From a virus: DNA of 64,000 nucleotides. Below are positions 5,041-35,557 of this stretch, one piece after another. The notes under the pieces were generated by a model. The model saw nothing but the letters and a program-made list of their open reading frames with translations, did no database searches and had not been told where the DNA came from. Position numbers and translations under genes: made by a program. Where the stretch lies: positions 64,001 through 128,000 of the IMG/VR virus record IMGVR_UViG_3300013102_000030; one strand, 5' to 3'. Numbering within the stretch: the first letter of the stretch is position 1; each line of letters opens with the position of its first letter.

Positions 5041-5262
5041 ATGTCAGAACTACCTCAGATCGATTCACTCAAGGTTGCCGAAAAGGATATCCAGAAGCTT
5101 GAGTCACTGCTAAAGCAGTCTCGCCGCAACGAATCCACCCTTGAAACCCTTGCAGAAGCTCTCCGTGATGAGCGTGATGAAGTACGCGAGAAGCTAGCAG
5201 AAGCAGAGCGTAAGCTCTCCGAGCCGGTACACGACATCACGTCGCTGCCTGATGGCAGATAA
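5041..5262 (+). CDS. Coiled-coil hypothetical protein
   Basis: GAAAGGA RBS; TGGTATAAT -10 element at 5002-5010; heptad-like sequence. Confidence 0.7.
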   Translation: MSELPQIDSLKVAEKDIQKLESLLKQSRRNESTLETLAEALRDERDEVREKLAEAERKLSEPVHDITSLPDGR

Positions 5263-5265
5263 GCC

Positions 5266-5778
5266 GTGGAGGCCGCTCCAAGCGAACAGGTACAAGAGAG
5301 GCCAAAGTTCGCCGTAAGAGATCTGGTCAGGACCCTTGAGTTCGATGGTATCAAACTTGCTGATAGCTCAAGCCGAGTCCCGCAGCGACCACGTTGGGTA
5401 GAGTTCGAACTTTACCGAACACCAATCAACACTTACGTACTTTCCCGTGTAGGCTACAGCCTTTACTATCACTCGCAAGAGTGCTACACTGTACAGCGTA
5501 ACAAGCTCAGTGCCGTAGATGGTCTGGAACTCAGTGGAGCGTACGTCGCATGTGATAAGTGCAACCCACAGCGAGCAGATATTGAAGGTGTATATCCTGA
5601 AACTCCTCGCTACCGAGCATGGCATTGCACCGAAGCCGTTGGTGTTGTCGCACTCCTCATGAAGGAAGACGACAACGGAACAGAGTATCTGACCAACGTT
5701 GCACGGAGGCTCCTCATGGAAGCTTCCAAACTGGACAAGAACATTGCCAGCGCGTTCCTCGTAGACCGCATCGGATAG
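5266..5778 (+). CDS. Hypothetical protein
   Basis: 170-aa ORF in the operon; contains a CxxC. Confidence 0.65.
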   Translation: MEAAPSEQVQERPKFAVRDLVRTLEFDGIKLADSSSRVPQRPRWVEFELYRTPINTYVLSRVGYSLYYHSQECYTVQRNKLSAVDGLELSGAYVACDKCNPQRADIEGVYPETPRYRAWHCTEAVGVVALLMKEDDNGTEYLTNVARRLLMEASKLDKNIASAFLVDRIG

Positions 5779-20743: not shown

Positions 20744-22366
20744 ATGTCCAAGTACAACACTTCTTCTGCGCGTTCTCGCGCTGGTGTCGGCCCGATCAAG
20801 TCCGCACCTTCCACCAATCTTCGCACCTTTGAAGGTGCAACCGGCTTCGCTCGTGATGCCAAGTCTGAACTCTTCCTTGCCGCTGTCTCTGATTTCGGTG
20901 GAGAGGCAACTTTCTACGAGTCTGCCAGCAACCGCGCTGATCGTCTCAAGGGTCTTGCCCATGAGGTCGCTGTTCAGGATGCCGACTGGCTGACGAACTT
21001 CACTCAGTGGCTCCGCAACGAAGCCAACATGCGTACCGTCTCCCTCACCACTGCCCTTGAAGGTGCCAAGGCACTCAACAAGGCCGGTATTCCGGGTGGA
21101 CGCAAGCTGGTCTCCAACGCGATCCGTCGTGCTGATGAGGCCGGTGAAGCTCTCGCTTACTGGATGGCAAACAATGGTCGTAAGATCCCGTCTGCTGTCA
21201 AGCGCGGTATCGCTGATGGTGCTGTGAAGTCCTTCAGCGAGTACTCCCTTGCCAAGTACGACACGGCTTCCCACGGCTTCCGCTTCGGTGACGTGATCGA
21301 ACTGACCCACCCGTCTCCTCGGGACGAGAAGCAGTCCGACCTGTTCAAGTTCGCGCTTGACCGTCGTCGTGACGCTGCCGCAGAGCCTTCTGAGAACCTG
21401 ACCATGCTCCAGAAGCGTAAGGAATTCCTCGCGCTTTCTGACGCTGAGAAGCGTGAACTGGTCAACTCCGGTAAGGCTCTCGATGTCCTGTCTCAGGCTG
21501 GCCTGACGTGGGAGGTTCTGTCCTCTGCGTACGGTAAGGGTGGTCTCGATGCCAAGGGCTGGGAAGCAATCATCCCTTCCATGGGTTACATGGCTCTGCT
21601 CCGCAACCTTCGTAACTTTGAAGAGAAGGGCGTTTCTGACGCTGTTCTGGATCAGGTAGCTGCACGGATCTCCGATCCTGCTGAAGTTGCCAAGTCCCGT
21701 CAGCTTCCGTTCCGCTTCCTCGCGGCCTATCAGGCGAACAAGGGTTCCCTCCGCTTCGGCTACCCTCTGGAGAAGGCCCTCAAGGCTTCTCTGGAGAACG
21801 TTCCGGCTCTGGATGGCGATACCCTGATCCTCGTGGACCGCTCCATCTCCATGTTCGGTACCCTCTCCAAGAGCACTCAGTTGAACTTCGCTGACTCTGC
21901 TGCTCTGTTTGGTTCCGCCCTTGCTCTGCGTGCAGAGAAGGCTACTCTTGTGGCCTTTGGCGATAACTCCAAGGAGATCTCCTTCAAGCGCAGCGATTCG
22001 GTTCTCAAGACCGTTGAGCGCTTTGAGCGCATGGGTGGTACGATGACCTATGACGCTCTGGTGAAGCACTTTGATCCGTCAAAGCACACCCGTGTTGTCC
22101 TCATCACCGATGAGCAGGCAACCGGTGCGTACTACCGATCCACGGCAAACCGTGGCTGGGGATACCAGACCGTTCAGGGAGACATCCTTGATGCCATTCC
22201 TTCCACCATCCCGGCATACACTTGGAACCTCGCGGGTTACAGGGCCGGTCACGGTGAGTCCAAGACGAACCGAACCTATCTGGGTGGTTTGTCCGATCAG
22301 GCTTTCAAGCTGATCCCGCTCCTTGAGCGTGGATACGACGCTGGCTGGCCTTGGGAAGTCAAGTGA
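20744..22366 (+). CDS. rsr: Ro60 / TROVE-domain RNA-binding protein (Rsr homologue) with C-terminal vWA domain
   Basis: TFYE, LRNEANMRT, YSLAKYD, HPSP, LTWE, MGYMALLRNLRN, SRQLPFRF, MIDAS DRSISM, ITDEQ. Confidence 0.93.
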   Translation: MSKYNTSSARSRAGVGPIKSAPSTNLRTFEGATGFARDAKSELFLAAVSDFGGEATFYESASNRADRLKGLAHEVAVQDADWLTNFTQWLRNEANMRTVSLTTALEGAKALNKAGIPGGRKLVSNAIRRADEAGEALAYWMANNGRKIPSAVKRGIADGAVKSFSEYSLAKYDTASHGFRFGDVIELTHPSPRDEKQSDLFKFALDRRRDAAAEPSENLTMLQKRKEFLALSDAEKRELVNSGKALDVLSQAGLTWEVLSSAYGKGGLDAKGWEAIIPSMGYMALLRNLRNFEEKGVSDAVLDQVAARISDPAEVAKSRQLPFRFLAAYQANKGSLRFGYPLEKALKASLENVPALDGDTLILVDRSISMFGTLSKSTQLNFADSAALFGSALALRAEKATLVAFGDNSKEISFKRSDSVLKTVERFERMGGTMTYDALVKHFDPSKHTRVVLITDEQATGAYYRSTANRGWGYQTVQGDILDAIPSTIPAYTWNLAGYRAGHGESKTNRTYLGGLSDQAFKLIPLLERGYDAGWPWEVK

Positions 22367-22435
22367 CTTTCCTCCTGCTCTTTCCGGTTGCTCTGGCTCT
22401 TTTGGGCTGGGGCAACCGGAAGGAGATGTGGTAAC

Positions 22436-22465
22436 TTGACCTCAGTCTGAGGACTGTGGTACAAT
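22436..22465 (+). promoter_or_regulatory. SigA-type promoter for Y5 and downstream RNAs
   Basis: TTGACC-18-TACAAT with extended TG; +1 falls at about the Y5 5' end. Confidence 0.7.
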
Positions 22466-22469
22466 AGAT

Positions 22470-22580
22470 TTACTGAAGCGCAGAGTAGAGTTACTTCATA
22501 TCATTCATGGTACGCCCTGTTGGAGGGTTTACGGGTTCAACTCCCGCGTAAAAATCTCTCTATTCGATTTTTCTCAGTGA
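22470..22580 (+). ncRNA. Y-RNA-like element Y5 (hairpin plus T-arm cargo)
   Basis: TACTGA/TCAGTG, GAAGCG, GAGTAGAG/CTCTATTC, TACTTC, CGGG-TTCAACT-CCCG. Confidence 0.75.
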
Positions 22581-22581
22581 T

Positions 22582-22655
22582 GCTTCCTTAGCTCAGTTGG
22601 CCAGAGCGGCGCTCTTGTAAAGCGTAGGTCGTCGGTTCGAATCCGACAGGAAGCT
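22582..22655 (+). tRNA. tRNA-Thr(TGT)
   Basis: GCGCT-CTTGTAA-AGCGT. Confidence 0.95.
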
Positions 22656-22658
22656 CTA

Positions 22659-22797
22659 GTCCAGAAGTGATAGATACCTGTTACTTCCTCTGTTAATGGA
22701 CGAGACCGTGGTTCGATTCCCGGATACCCCGCTTCATGGGGTATTAGTGTAATGGTTTAGCACTGTAAAATCACAGGGATCGCCTTTTTCTCTGGAC
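22659..22797 (+). ncRNA. YrlA-like Y RNA Y6 (circularly permuted tRNA domain)
   Basis: GTCCAGA/TCTGGAC stem, TACTTC, then T-arm, loop-closed acceptor stem ATACCCC/GGGGTAT, TA, D-arm GTGT-AATGGTTTA-GCAC. Confidence 0.85.
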
Positions 22798-22804
22798 AAA
22801 ATTT

Positions 22805-22951
22805 TGTGTGAAGTGTAAAGAAGAGTTACTTCTAACTCAAATCAGCGGGTCGCAGGTTCGAATCCTGTCACCTGACCGTTCGCGGTTGGGTGTAGCTCAG
22901 ATGGAAGAGCAGCCGACATCTAACAAGCCTCTTCTTGCTTGTTCTCACACG
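22805..22951 (+). ncRNA. YrlA-like Y RNA Y7 (circularly permuted tRNA domain)
   Basis: TGTGTGA/TCACACG stem, TACTTC, T-arm GCAGG-TTCGAAT-CCTGT, acceptor stem CACCTGACCG-TTCG-CGGTTGGGTG, D-arm GCTC-AGATGGAA-GAGC. Confidence 0.88.
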
Positions 22952-22955
22952 ATAT

Positions 22956-23030
22956 GGCGCTGTAGCTCAGTTTAGGCAGAGCGACTGATTGAAAATCAGT
23001 AGGTCGCGGGTTCGATCCCCGTTGGTGCCA
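22956..23030 (+). tRNA. tRNA-Phe(GAA)
   Basis: ACTGA-TTGAAAA-TCAGT. Confidence 0.95.
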
Positions 23031-32925: not shown

Positions 32926-32996
32926 GCCTCAGGTCTCTGGCGAAGCGCGGTTCTCTCATAAGGAACTGGTAGGTGGTTCGATCCCACCCTGAGGTA
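32926..32996 (+). tRNA. tRNA(CAT) Met/Ile2, truncated D-arm
   Basis: GCCTCAG/CTGAGGT, GTTCT-CTCATAA-GGAAC, T-arm; D region only about 16 nt. Confidence 0.75.
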
Positions 32997-33022: not shown

Positions 33023-33742
33023 ATGACAACTCCCTTCTACGAACTGCCCCTGCTCTCCCTTGACACGGAAACGACAGGTGTTGACGTGTTCACGGATCGC
33101 GTGGTAACATGTAACATCACATATGACTACCCTGACGGTCGAGATCCCTTCATTGCTGACTGGATCATCAATCCGGGAGTTCCGATCCCGCAAGGTGCAT
33201 CGGATGTGCATGGCATCACAGACGAAATCGCTCAGAGAGATGGCGGTGACCCGTTCACGGTGCTCACCAACGTAGCACAACATCTCAAGTACTGGGGCGA
33301 TCTTGGACTTCCTTACGTTATTTACAACGCTAGTTTTGACACTACTATCCTTATGGCTGAATTTGACCGTTATGGCATTCCTCAGCCTACTGGGTGGAAT
33401 TGTGTTATTGACCCTTTGGTACTGGATAAAGGGGTAGAACCATATCGAAAGGGAAGCCGAAAGCTGATTGACACAGCGCGGCACTATGGCATAGAATTGT
33501 CGGAAGAAGACGCGCACAGCGCAAACTTTGACTCCATGGCTTCTGTCAAGATCTCACGAGCCATCGGGCGAAAGTATGAGATCGACTCCCCACTGGATGA
33601 GGTCCACGCGCAGCAAGTCATCTGGAAGGCAAAGCAGGCCAAGGGTCTACAGGACTACTTCCGGAAATCCAAGAATGATGACACCATCGTCATCAACGGA
33701 GAATGGCCGTTCCAGACAAGAGAGTTGACACCAACTTTCTAA
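33023..33742 (+). CDS. DnaQ-like DEDDh exonuclease
   Basis: DTETTG, YNASFD, AHSANFD. Confidence 0.9.
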   Translation: MTTPFYELPLLSLDTETTGVDVFTDRVVTCNITYDYPDGRDPFIADWIINPGVPIPQGASDVHGITDEIAQRDGGDPFTVLTNVAQHLKYWGDLGLPYVIYNASFDTTILMAEFDRYGIPQPTGWNCVIDPLVLDKGVEPYRKGSRKLIDTARHYGIELSEEDAHSANFDSMASVKISRAIGRKYEIDSPLDEVHAQQVIWKAKQAKGLQDYFRKSKNDDTIVINGEWPFQTRELTPTF

Positions 33743-33882: not shown

Positions 33883-33954
33883 ACCCGTGTAGCTCAAAGG
33901 CAGAGCGGCGCACTGTTAATGCGTAGGTTATAGGTTCGAATCCTATCATGGGTG
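33883..33954 (+). tRNA. tRNA-Asn(GTT)
   Basis: GCGCA-CTGTTAA-TGCGT. Confidence 0.93.
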
Positions 33955-34548: not shown

Positions 34549-34585
34549 CTTTTTCATGCCCAAAACAAATCAAAGTAAAGGAAAT

Positions 34586-35557
34586 ATGGAACGCCAGCTT
34601 GTCACACTTGAAACTATCTCAGAAATCAACCCCATTCCTGATGCAGACGCTATCGAAGTCGCCAAGGTTCGCGGGTGGAATGTTGTCACTAAGAAGGGCG
34701 AGTTTCAGCCCGGAGACGAAGTCCTCTACTTTGAGATCGATTCTTTCCTTCCCATTTCCGACCCTCGGTTCGCTTTCCTTGAACCACGTGGTGTCCGAGT
34801 ACAGGATGGAGTTACGGGACACGTTCTCAAAACTGTACGCCTTAGAGGCCAGTACTCTCAAGGACTTATCAAACCAGTATCTGAATTTCCTGAGGGACTT
34901 CCGGATATCGTCAAGTTTGACCCTCCCCTTCCCGCAGGTCTTGAAGGTGCAGTAGAAGGCCAGTTCCTCTACCAGTTCGCTCCCAAGACGGATGCAGAGC
35001 GTATTCAGAACCTTGGACGAGTCCTCAATGAGATCCATGAGCACGAGTGGACTGCCACTGAGAAGATCGACGGAACATCTACCACAATCGTCAACGATGG
35101 CGGAACCATCCGGATCTGCTCCCGTAACTGGGAGATCAGCCGCCCCAGCGCACGGTTCGATCTTGCCGACAAGCTGAACCTTGCGGAGATCCTTCCTGTG
35201 GATCACGCGATTCAGGGTGAGTACTTTGGTGAGAACATCCAAGGTAACCCTCTCGGGATCAAGGGCACGGACTTCAAGGCGTTCAACCTCTACCGGAAGA
35301 CCGATAATGGCCCTGTAGCTGTTCCGTTCAATGAGTGGGGCGAAGAGCTTAGCGCTCTACAGGTCCCTGTGCTTCCTCTGACGCTCCCGCAGGCCATCCA
35401 TGAGATTGTGGATCAGGCTGATGGTTTGAAGTCTGTAATCAACCCACAGCGCCTTGCAGAAGGTATTGTGTGGCAGGGACCGAAGGGCTTCCCGTTCTTG
35501 GGTAACCGTCCCGGATTCAAGGCCATCTCCAACAAGTACCTTGCCAAGCAGAAGTAG
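34586..35557 (+). CDS. RNA ligase, DRB0094/Rnl2-like, with N-terminal OB-type domain
   Basis: IPDADAIE, LRGQYSQG, TEKIDGTS, QGE, EGIV, FKAIS. Confidence 0.9.
   Translation: MERQLVTLETISEINPIPDADAIEVAKVRGWNVVTKKGEFQPGDEVLYFEIDSFLPISDPRFAFLEPRGVRVQDGVTGHVLKTVRLRGQYSQGLIKPVSEFPEGLPDIVKFDPPLPAGLEGAVEGQFLYQFAPKTDAERIQNLGRVLNEIHEHEWTATEKIDGTSTTIVNDGGTIRICSRNWEISRPSARFDLADKLNLAEILPVDHAIQGEYFGENIQGNPLGIKGTDFKAFNLYRKTDNGPVAVPFNEWGEELSALQVPVLPLTLPQAIHEIVDQADGLKSVINPQRLAEGIVWQGPKGFPFLGNRPGFKAISNKYLAKQK

What the first reader, a model, noticed from the sequence alone, without database searches (positions are those of the whole stretch)
22659..22951. Two tandem circularly permuted tRNA domains (YrlA-like); Y6 keeps an Asn anticodon-loop sequence
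Seen: the order is T-arm, acceptor stem closed by a loop, TA, D-arm, i.e. a tRNA opened at the anticodon and sealed at its ends. Y7's acceptor stem is capped by TTCG. In Y6 the bases before the variable region read CTGTTAA-TGGAC, and CTGTTAA is identical to the anticodon loop of the tRNA-Asn at 33883. Y7 keeps a GCCGA/TCAGC anticodon-stem remnant. Known: this permuted order defines YrlA. Inference: these are unchargeable tRNA-elbow mimics, probably derived from different tRNAs, and could be decoys for anticodon nucleases or modification enzymes.
Basis: partly seen in the sequence, partly recalled or inferred. Interest (0 to 1): 0.8.

Follow-up and report, generated by a model that had tools for sequence, protein, structure and literature searches.

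The report
Two phage Y RNAs mimicking tRNA
Two small RNA genes just after a phage's Ro60 gene fold like tRNAs with sealed ends, mounted on a stem of the kind Ro60 binds; this class of RNA (YrlA-type Y RNA) is already known in bacteria and phages, so the find is real but largely ordinary.

Summary
At 22659-22797 (Y6) and 22805-22951 (Y7), + strand, each element carries a T arm, a hairpin-closed acceptor stem, UA and a D arm, on a two-part stem. They lie 292 nt after a TROVE/vWA Ro60 gene. Rfam YrlA matches Y7 below its cut-off: 31.7 bits against 69. Un-permuted Y7 is called a tRNA by ARAGORN. Y6 is called only at a lowered threshold. The same architecture occurs on the Ro strand in 33 of 41 related viral loci and 54 of 67 actinomycete Ro loci, never on the other strand. 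Stems co-vary. The architecture is already published as "circularly permuted tRNA" for YrlA, including 22 phages (Chen 2014; Wang 2018 preprint). The Asn reading is not supported as stated. Y6's tRNA pieces are not closest to the phage's tRNA-Asn. The heptamer is instead the commonest loop of a family-wide hairpin that looks like an anticodon arm, just before the T arm: 15 of 48 bacterial hairpins and 4 of 26 viral ones. In Y6 that hairpin is degenerate. Verdict: new members of a known kind. The earlier notes of this scan that I used concern this same genome.

The parts
20744..22366 (+). Ro60 homologue (540 aa), the presumed protein partner
   Evidence: Pfam TROVE E 9e-17 and VWA_2. 69.5% identical to the 'Ro-like RNA binding protein' of Arthrobacter phage Atuin.
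22436..22465 (+). Promoter-like site ahead of Y5, tRNA-Thr, Y6, Y7, tRNA-Phe
   Evidence: TTGACC-18-TACAAT, 10 of 12 matches with TG. A consensus match only.
22659..22797 (+). Y6, whole element
   Evidence: Parts:
- terminal 7-bp stem 22659-22665 / 22791-22797
- GAAGUG 22664-22669
- second stem 22673-22680 / 22774-22781
- UUACUUC 22681-22687
- tRNA-like module 22702-22764
RNAalifold on 4 orthologs returns both stems, the T arm and the acceptor stem. Own model R1 scores it 47.9 bits.
22690..22701 (+). Y6 remnant of the family's hairpin before the T arm (loop CUGUUAA)
   Evidence: Only 3 of 5 flanking pairs in Y6. The same position holds a 4-6 bp / 7-nt-loop hairpin in 26 of 50 viral and 48 of 71 bacterial elements.
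22706..22763 (+). Y6 T arm, sealed 7-bp acceptor stem, UA, D arm
   Evidence: Relatives in two other metagenome runs carry A22726G together with T22742C, turning an A-U pair into G-C in the acceptor stem.
22805..22951 (+). Y7, whole element
   Evidence: Parts:
- terminal stem 22805-22811 / 22945-22951
- GAAGUG 22810-22815
- second stem 22818-22825 / 22929-22936
- UUACUUC 22826-22832
Rfam YrlA covers 22818-22939 at 31.7 bits, E 6.8e-5. R1 scores it 59.0 bits.
22842..22916 (+). Y7 tRNA-like module: 3' anticodon-stem strand, 5-nt variable loop, T arm, 10-bp UUCG-capped acceptor stem, UA, D arm, A, 5' anticodon-stem strand
   Evidence: When un-permuted in a script, ARAGORN calls it a tRNA at default settings.

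Best explanation
Y6 and Y7 are two YrlA-type Y RNAs of a large actinophage, a relative of Arthrobacter phage Atuin.

Shown here:
- Each has a stem formed by its own 5' and 3' ends. The stem carries the motifs shared by all seven Y-like elements around the Ro60 gene: ..GA / AGYG, a second stem, UUACUUC, and a U-rich 3' side ending UC.
- On that stem sits a tRNA-like module in the order variable loop, T arm, sealed acceptor stem, UA, D arm.
- The conserved tRNA elbow nucleotides are kept.

Inferred:
- They are transcribed with the neighbouring tRNAs from the promoter-like site at 22436-22465.
- They are freed when the flanking tRNAs are processed. Y6 starts 3 nt after tRNA-Thr's discriminator and Y7 ends 4 nt before tRNA-Phe.
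- The stem binds the phage Ro60.
- The tRNA-like module folds into the tRNA L-shape. It serves as the effector end that brings a host tRNA- or RNA-binding factor to Ro60, most likely PNPase and/or elbow-recognising enzymes.
- The effect is to retune host RNA decay, quality control or repair during infection.

Y6 may in addition be cut by RNase P, because of its exact 7-bp acceptor stem. Y7 probably is not.
For: Partner and position:
- The Ro60 gene ends 292 nt upstream on the same strand.

Matches to known models:
- Rfam YrlA matches Y7 end to end, model positions 1-114, at E 6.8e-5 locally and 4.2e-6 for the genome.
- ARAGORN calls un-permuted Y7 a tRNA.

Spread of the architecture:
- It is present on the Ro strand in 33 of 41 IMG/VR loci with a Ro relative, and in Atuin.
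- It is present in 54 of 67 actinomycete Ro loci.
- There are 0 hits on the opposite strand in both sets.

Covariation:
- In 49 elements, 14 of 16 pairs show changes on both sides. The covariation score is 0.822 against 0.226 in shuffles, reached by 0 of 500.
- Y6 orthologs chosen by synteny (Atuin, L010, L011) keep both scaffold stems, the T arm and the acceptor stem. 7 of 28 pairs changed on both sides.
- Metagenome relatives carry a compensatory A-U to G-C change in Y6's acceptor stem.

Literature:
- YrlA lies next to Ro60 in 254 bacteria and 22 phages. It is modified by TruB and DusA, and M. smegmatis YrlA is cut by RNase P (Chen 2014, sections read).
- The crystal structure shows the L-shape (Wang 2018 preprint).
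- Thermus phage phiLo Ro60 binds two phage Y-like RNAs and host PNPase and attenuates it (PMC12135203, passages).
Against: - There are no expression data; no RNA run is listed.
- Neither element reaches Rfam's YrlA cut-off, and Y6 is not hit at all.
- Chen's 5' motif GNCGAAN0-1G, read strictly, is absent from both.
- Y6's T stem has a bulged U, and positions 15/48 are A/A rather than a standard Levitt pair.
- Y6's R1 score of 47.9 bits is no higher than the best junction of two adjacent tRNA genes, 46.8 bits. Its case therefore rests on the acceptor pairing, the scaffold and the orthologs.
- The set used was picked by a filter that demands pairing, so its 97.8% paired is circular.
- Ro binding, the effector and any role in infection are all by analogy.
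Confidence: 0.75

Rival explanations
1. Decoys or sponges: the tRNA-like modules soak up host anticodon nucleases or tRNA-modifying enzymes. Ro60 would only stabilise them.
For: - The phage carries 30 tRNAs, an RNA ligase (34556-35557) and an RNase T-like exonuclease. That fits pressure on the tRNA pool.
- Across the family, a hairpin resembling an anticodon arm sits just before the T arm. 16 of 26 viral and 37 of 48 bacterial loops fit YU-NNN-R-N.
- YrlA is a substrate of tRNA enzymes (Chen 2014).
Against: - Y7 has no anticodon loop. The 7 nt after its stem vary among close relatives.
- Y6's hairpin keeps only 3 of 5 pairs.
- The same RNAs occur in bacterial chromosomes beside Ro60, where a phage counter-defence role does not apply.
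- No nuclease target is known.
Confidence: 0.12
2. Inert leftovers of tandem tRNA duplication or recombination within the tRNA array.
For: - They sit inside a dense tRNA array.
- The model R1 also scores junctions of adjacent tRNA genes up to 46.8 bits.
- Y6 has a bulged T stem and a decayed hairpin.
- A dimeric-tRNA origin is the published model (Wang 2018 preprint Discussion).
Against: - Orthologs in Atuin, L010 and L011 keep the structure with compensatory changes.
- Close relatives show a compensatory change in Y6's acceptor stem.
- The Ro-type scaffold is shared with five other elements.
- Hits lie on the Ro strand only, across 33 of 41 viral and 54 of 67 bacterial loci.
Confidence: 0.05
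3. Genuine permuted tRNA genes that are cut, ligated and opened to give working tRNAs, as in the red alga Cyanidioschyzon.
For: - ARAGORN reads un-permuted Y7 as a tRNA.
- The phage encodes an RNA ligase.
- Wang 2018 raises the possibility for some YrlA RNAs.
Against: - Y7's would-be loop has A where U33 should be, and it varies in relatives.
- Its acceptor stem has no free discriminator.
- Y6 is not recognised at default settings.
- No RtcB is found in the genome.
- Wang 2018 notes that no bacterial equivalent of the splicing endonuclease is reported.
Confidence: 0.03

Closest known systems
YrlA of Salmonella Typhimurium (Rfam RF02553; crystal structure 6CU1 as cited in the Wang 2018 preprint)
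   Same: - Encoded beside Ro60.
- Order T arm, closed acceptor stem, UA, D arm.
- An anticodon-stem-like helix leads into the Ro-binding stem (as in Y7).
- A YUAY motif lies before the variable region.
   Different: - Y6 and Y7 lie downstream of Ro60 and inside a tRNA array.
- Y7 scores 31.7 bits against the cut-off of 69, and Y6 is not hit.
- The 5' motif is GAAGUG rather than the strict GNCGAAN0-1G.
- The Salmonella acceptor stem has 6 bp, against 7 in Y6 and 10 in Y7.
YrlA of Mycobacterium smegmatis and of mycobacteriophages (Chen 2014)
   Same: - Actinobacterial and actinophage setting.
- More than one Y RNA per locus.
[quoted passage not shown]
   Different: I could not compare sequences. 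The alignment is a figure and the phage list is in closed supplements. Whether Arthrobacter-type phages were among the 22 phages is unknown to me.
Yrl1/Yrl2 of Thermus phage phiLo (PMC12135203)
   Same: Phage-encoded Y-like RNAs beside a phage Ro60. They are shown there to bind Ro60 and host PNPase (passages).
   Different: In the passages I saw they are described as stem-bulge-stem RNAs with a CGAA motif. No tRNA-like module is mentioned, and they lie upstream of the gene.
Permuted tRNA genes of Cyanidioschyzon merolae and two-piece tmRNA
   Same: The 3' half of a tRNA-like fold precedes the 5' half. The acceptor stem is initially closed by a loop (as summarised in Wang 2018).
   Different: Those are processed into working tRNA or tmRNA with free CCA ends. 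Nothing here suggests that for Y7, and there is only the 7-bp stem for Y6.

Membership tests
YrlA-type Y RNA, sensu Chen et al. 2014 | Encoded within 4 kb of a Ro60/TROVE gene, on the same strand | tested here: met
   Ro60 is at 20744-22366 (+). Y6 starts at 22659 and Y7 ends at 22951, both on the + strand.
YrlA-type Y RNA, sensu Chen et al. 2014 | T-like and D-like stem-loops with tRNA's conserved nucleotides, in the order T, acceptor-like stem-loop, D | tested here: met
   R1 gives 59.0 bits (Y7) and 47.9 bits (Y6).
YrlA-type Y RNA, sensu Chen et al. 2014 | Conserved YUAY before the variable (V) region | tested here: met
   UUAC, within UUACUUC, is present in both. It is found in 29 of 50 viral elements and 41 of 71 bacterial elements.
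YrlA-type Y RNA, sensu Chen et al. 2014 | 5' motif GNCGAAN0-1G (presumed Ro60 contact) | tested here: inconclusive
   - The strict pattern is absent from Y6 and Y7. Both keep GAAG, 4 of the 6 fixed letters.
- The strict pattern is also found in only 1 of 50 viral and 2 of 71 actinomycete elements.
- So it does not describe this branch as I read it. The paper's alignment figure could not be seen.
YrlA-type Y RNA, sensu Chen et al. 2014 | Bound by Ro60; carries pseudouridine 55 and dihydrouridine | not testable with these tools
   Needs immunoprecipitation and modification mapping.
Rfam RF02553 (YrlA) as curated | Score at or above the gathering cut-off of 69 bits | tested here: not met
   Y7 scores 31.7 bits and Y6 has no hit at E up to 10. 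0 of 20 related loci (19 actinomycete loci and L015) reach it either, so the cut-off excludes this whole branch.
tRNA (RF00005 / ARAGORN) | Recognised as a tRNA gene in the genomic order | tested here: not met
   No call within 22657-22955. Recognition comes only after un-permuting in a script: Y7 at default settings, Y6 only with a lowered threshold.

The most novel reading that the evidence does not exclude
The hairpin just 5' of the T arm in actinobacterial and actinophage YrlA RNAs is a conserved, working mimic of an anticodon arm.

- It has a 4-6 bp stem and a 7-nt loop.
- The loop is most often the Asn-type CUGUUAA, then the Ser-type CUGCUAA. Pro-, Arg-, Lys- and Met-like loops also occur.
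- Paralogous Y RNAs with different loops would present different 'anticodons' to a loop-reading partner, either a nuclease or a modification enzyme.
- Y6's heptamer would be a decaying copy.

The geometry also fits the published dimeric-tRNA origin, with the hairpin as the first tRNA's anticodon arm.

I did not find this stated in the main text of Chen 2014 or the Wang 2018 preprint: all 'anticodon' passages were seen. I also did not find it among the papers located. The supplements are closed.
Probability: 0.15. Interest if true: 0.6.

Novelty: new member of a known kind. Interest (0 to 1): 0.3.

Why it matters
It adds an Arthrobacter-type actinophage lineage to the phages that carry Ro60 with tRNA-mimicking Y RNAs. 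Here the Y RNAs are embedded in a 30-tRNA array next to an RNA ligase.

Atuin is a cultured relative with the same locus. It would allow direct tests of what a phage Ro60-Y RNA particle does.

The family-wide hairpin resembling an anticodon arm is a concrete lead on the origin of these RNAs and on their still unknown effector. It is also a source of false tRNA calls.

Tried and rejected
Dead ends and rejected ideas:
- Rfam at gathering cut-off finds no YrlA in the window, nor in 20 related loci.
- megablast of 22300-23000 against phages finds only the tRNA-Thr.
- An origin in a particular tRNA is unresolved. Y6 pieces are nearest to Cys, Leu, Gln, Val and Tyr, with tRNA-Asn not in the top 5. 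Y7 is nearest to tRNA-Pro(tgg), 56 of 73 against a median of 49. These margins are too small to name a parent.
- A tRNA-Arg reading of Y7 is rejected. ARAGORN calls it 'Arg tct', but the loop has A at position 33 and varies in close relatives.
- I tested an alternative fold in which the hairpin's 3' strand pairs with the 5 nt after the D arm. Support is weak: mean 3.32 against 3.07 pairs with swapped partners, reached in 8 of 1000.
- The single-sequence minimum-energy folds pair GAAGUG.. with ..UUACUUC or mis-pair the module. I set them aside in favour of the fold shared by orthologs.
- The second RNAalifold run included one range that I cut short at its 3' end (L001 up to 5183). I use only its T, acceptor and D pairs.
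- RtcB is absent from the 174-kb record.
- No RNA holder is listed among the sequencing runs. This is no evidence on expression.
- Two reviews were not held.
- Supplements of Chen 2014 (phage list, alignments) are closed and may bear on novelty.

Rows dropped:
- From the 56 distinct elements I dropped three exact duplicates (L023, L025, L042).
- By eye, I dropped three hits without the upstream motif (L043 4425, L046 692, L046 840).
- I dropped L011 4505 (long acceptor insert) before the alignment.
- Copies of the window itself (L002-L008) were never counted as relatives.

Full report
SETTING

The window is bases 64001-128000 of a 174-kb IMG/VR virus record. ARAGORN finds 30 tRNA genes in it, all on the + strand.

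The ORF at 20744-22366 (+) is a Ro60 homologue. Pfam gives TROVE at E 9e-17, plus VWA_2. tblastn finds relatives in 78 phage records. The closest is the 'Ro-like RNA binding protein' of Arthrobacter phage Atuin, at 69.5% identity over the full length. Atuin has the same gene order: tRNA-Trp, Pro, Gly, Ro, tRNA-Thr, an unannotated gap, tRNA-Phe.

THE OBSERVATION

Reading the sequence confirms every stated feature.

Y6 spans 22659-22797:
- T arm 22706-22723, whose 5' strand has one bulged U.
- Acceptor 3' strand 22724-22730, seven loop bases, and acceptor 5' strand 22738-22744. That is 7 pairs, with a possible G.U beyond them.
- UA, then D arm 22747-22763.

Y7 spans 22805-22951:
- T arm 22852-22868.
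- A continuous 10-bp acceptor helix capped by UUCG (22879-22882).
- UA, then D arm 22895-22910.
- Two strands, 22842-22846 and 22912-22916, that form 4 of 5 anticodon-stem pairs.

The heptamer CTGTTAA at 22690-22696 equals the anticodon loop of tRNA-Asn. The two copies are the only ones in the window; 4.5 are expected by chance. No tRNA call overlaps the region.

THE SCAFFOLD

Both elements close with a 7-bp stem made of their own ends. Next come GAAGUG, an 8-bp second stem and UUACUUC. The 3' side is U-rich and ends in UC. I checked their ends, using the coordinates of note e1-5731966.

A promoter-like site lies at 22436-22465. Y6 begins 3 nt after the discriminator of tRNA-Thr. Y7 ends 4 nt before tRNA-Phe. 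Seven nt separate Y6 from Y7. That these RNAs are co-transcribed with the tRNAs and released by tRNA processing is my inference.

TESTS OF tRNA LIKENESS

- Rfam's YrlA model aligns Y7 from model position 1 to 114 at 31.7 bits. That is E 6.8e-5 for the 701-nt search and 4.2e-6 for the genome, and it is below the cut-off of 69 bits.
- Y6 is not hit.
- I un-permuted both in a script and ran ARAGORN.
  - Y7, joined at its anticodon-stem strands with the next 7 nt as a loop, is called a tRNA at default settings.
  - The full circular permutation of Y7 is called an intron-bearing tRNA.
Its full permutation is not called.

RELATIVES

A scan of my own looked for a T arm, a sealed 7-bp acceptor stem, T(A/G) and a D arm.
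- It gave 101 raw hits, all on the Ro strand, none on the other strand, and none in 5 shuffles.
- It hit 33 of the 41 IMG/VR loci that encode a Ro relative (L009-L049), as well as Atuin and the window.
- In the distant relatives the elements lie just upstream of Ro.
- Tandem copies are common there.

The same scan on 67 actinomycete chromosomal Ro loci hit 54 loci. It found 71 elements, all upstream of Ro on its strand, and 0 on the other strand.

On an alignment of 49 elements, 14 of the 16 T, acceptor and D pairs show changes on both sides. The covariation score is 0.822, against 0.226 in shuffles (0 of 500) and at most 0.188 when partners are slid. The 97.8% pairing is by construction, because the set was filtered for pairing.

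Evidence free of that filter comes from orthologs chosen by position between tRNA-Thr and tRNA-Phe. RNAalifold on the four Y6 orthologs returns the terminal stem, the second stem, the T arm and the acceptor stem. 7 of 28 pairs changed on both sides.

Contigs of two other metagenome runs, about 90% alike, carry A22726G together with T22742C. These two positions pair in Y6's acceptor stem.

A covariance model built from the 49 elements scores Y7 at 59.0 bits and Y6 at 47.9 bits. It also scores junctions of adjacent tRNA genes up to 46.8 bits. Score alone therefore does not establish Y6.

THE 'Asn' HEPTAMER

Y6's tRNA-like pieces are not especially like the phage's tRNA-Asn. It is not among the five nearest of the 30 tRNAs, even when the heptamer is included. 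The Asn anticodon stem also differs from the bases that flank the heptamer in Y6.

Instead, the heptamer sits where many family members have a hairpin.

| Measure | Viral elements | Bacterial elements |
|---|---|---|
| Stem of at least 4 bp with a 7-nt loop, ending 3-7 nt before the T stem | 26 of 50 (200 shuffles: mean 6.6, maximum 11) | 48 of 71 |
| Loops fitting the anticodon-loop pattern YU-NNN-R-N | 16 of 26 (shuffles: mean 0.39, maximum 3) | 37 of 48 |
| Loop CUGUUAA | 4 | 15 |
| Loop CUGCUAA | 6 | 6 |

In Y6 only 3 of the 5 flanking pairs remain. The heptamer is therefore best read as a decayed copy of a family motif. It corresponds to the 'V' stem-loop of Chen 2014, which follows YUAY.

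ARAGORN mistakes such hairpins plus the T arm for tRNA genes in L013, L015 and L016 (compared).

The geometry matches an anticodon arm attached on its 3' side: a 5-bp stem, a 7-nt loop, and 4-5 nt to the T stem. That fits the dimeric-tRNA origin model quoted in the Wang 2018 preprint.

Y7 belongs to a second type in which the anticodon stem survives as two separate strands. That stem has 5 of 5 pairs in 13 of the 50 viral elements and 4 of 5 pairs in 15, Y7 among them.

WHAT IS KNOWN

- Chen et al. 2014 (PMC4201824; abstract and sections 5, 6, 8, 10 and 18 read) report 355 putative YrlA RNAs beside Ro60 in 254 bacteria and 22 phages.
  - They report several per locus where present.
  - The RNAs have T, acceptor-like, D and V elements.
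  - They are modified by TruB and DusA.
  - The M. smegmatis RNA, which has a 7-bp acceptor stem, is cut by RNase P and gains CCA.
- The Wang et al. 2018 preprint (10.1101/312249; passages and Discussion read) shows the L-shaped fold.
  - It notes Y RNAs next to tRNA genes.
- A 2025 paper on Thermus phage phiLo (PMC12135203; passages) shows a phage Ro60 binding two phage Y-like RNAs and host PNPase.
- A jumbo-phage survey (PMC7824862; one passage) mentions TROVE proteins with a tRNA-like partner as an RNA-repair platform.

The kind is therefore known, including in phages.

MECHANISM AND VERDICT

I commit to the following. Y6 and Y7 are Ro60-binding Y RNAs whose tRNA-like end recruits a host factor to the phage Ro60 particle. 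PNPase is the best documented candidate.

The module structure, the conservation and the Ro linkage are shown. Transcription, Ro binding, the fold and the effector are inferred by analogy.

The context fits a role in RNA turnover or repair: an RNA ligase at 34556-35557 and an RNase T-like exonuclease at 33023-33742 lie within the tRNA island, and there is no RtcB.

The decoy idea stays possible but unsupported for these two copies.

Membership:
- The architectural features of YrlA are met.
- The strict 5' motif is not found, but it is also missing from nearly all actinomycete elements.
- Rfam's cut-off is missed by this whole branch.

I file the pair as new members of a known kind, in a divergent actinobacterial and actinophage branch. 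Interest is modest. The family-wide hairpin resembling an anticodon arm is the one lead that may be new.

Noticed in passing
L001 (phage Atuin) about 5051-5190: Atuin has a third tRNA-like Y RNA between the orthologs of Y6 and Y7, absent from the window. L010 and L011 have this type in place of a Y7 ortholog. In Atuin's Y7 ortholog (about 5199-5331) the D arm is replaced by a 5-bp hairpin with a 10-nt loop.
   Followed up: partly
window 22470-22580 (Y5); L010 4240-4372; L011 4245-4375: The Y5 orthologs in L010 and L011 carry a full T arm, closed acceptor stem and D arm. The window's Y5 keeps only a T-arm-like hairpin, which looks like loss of cargo.
   Followed up: partly
L015 2328-2399; L013 1909-1981; L016 2149-2224: ARAGORN calls tRNA-Asn(gtt), tRNA-Ser(gct) and tRNA-Pro(tgg) here. 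Each call overlaps a Y RNA whose hairpin loop and T arm are read as anticodon arm and T arm. These are likely false tRNA annotations in Ro60 loci.
   Followed up: partly
window 34556-35557 and 33023-33742: An RNA ligase (PHA02142 OB fold plus RNA_ligase) and an RNase T-like exonuclease lie inside the tRNA island. No RtcB is found in the record.
   Followed up: partly
window 22378-22425: A 22-bp perfect hairpin lies right after the Ro60 stop codon and before the promoter-like site. Rfam's microRNA hits there are spurious.
   Followed up: no
window 32926-32996: A sub-threshold tRNA-model match (26.5 bits against the cut-off of 29) that ARAGORN does not call.
   Followed up: no
L013 and L052; L036: The IMG/VR contig of L013 has the same length and range as a Peterkaempfera griseoplana genome contig, so it may be a prophage or a misfiled record. 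L036's contig has the length of Streptomyces phage BRock, 112523 bases. Its Y RNAs upstream of the 'RNA-binding protein' gene are not among the annotated features listed.
   Followed up: no
window 22705 and 22752: In relatives, A22705G and A22752G occur together in the same contigs. These are positions 48 and 15 of the tRNA numbering, so a purine-purine pair changes in step (A/A to G/G) instead of the usual Levitt pair.
   Followed up: no
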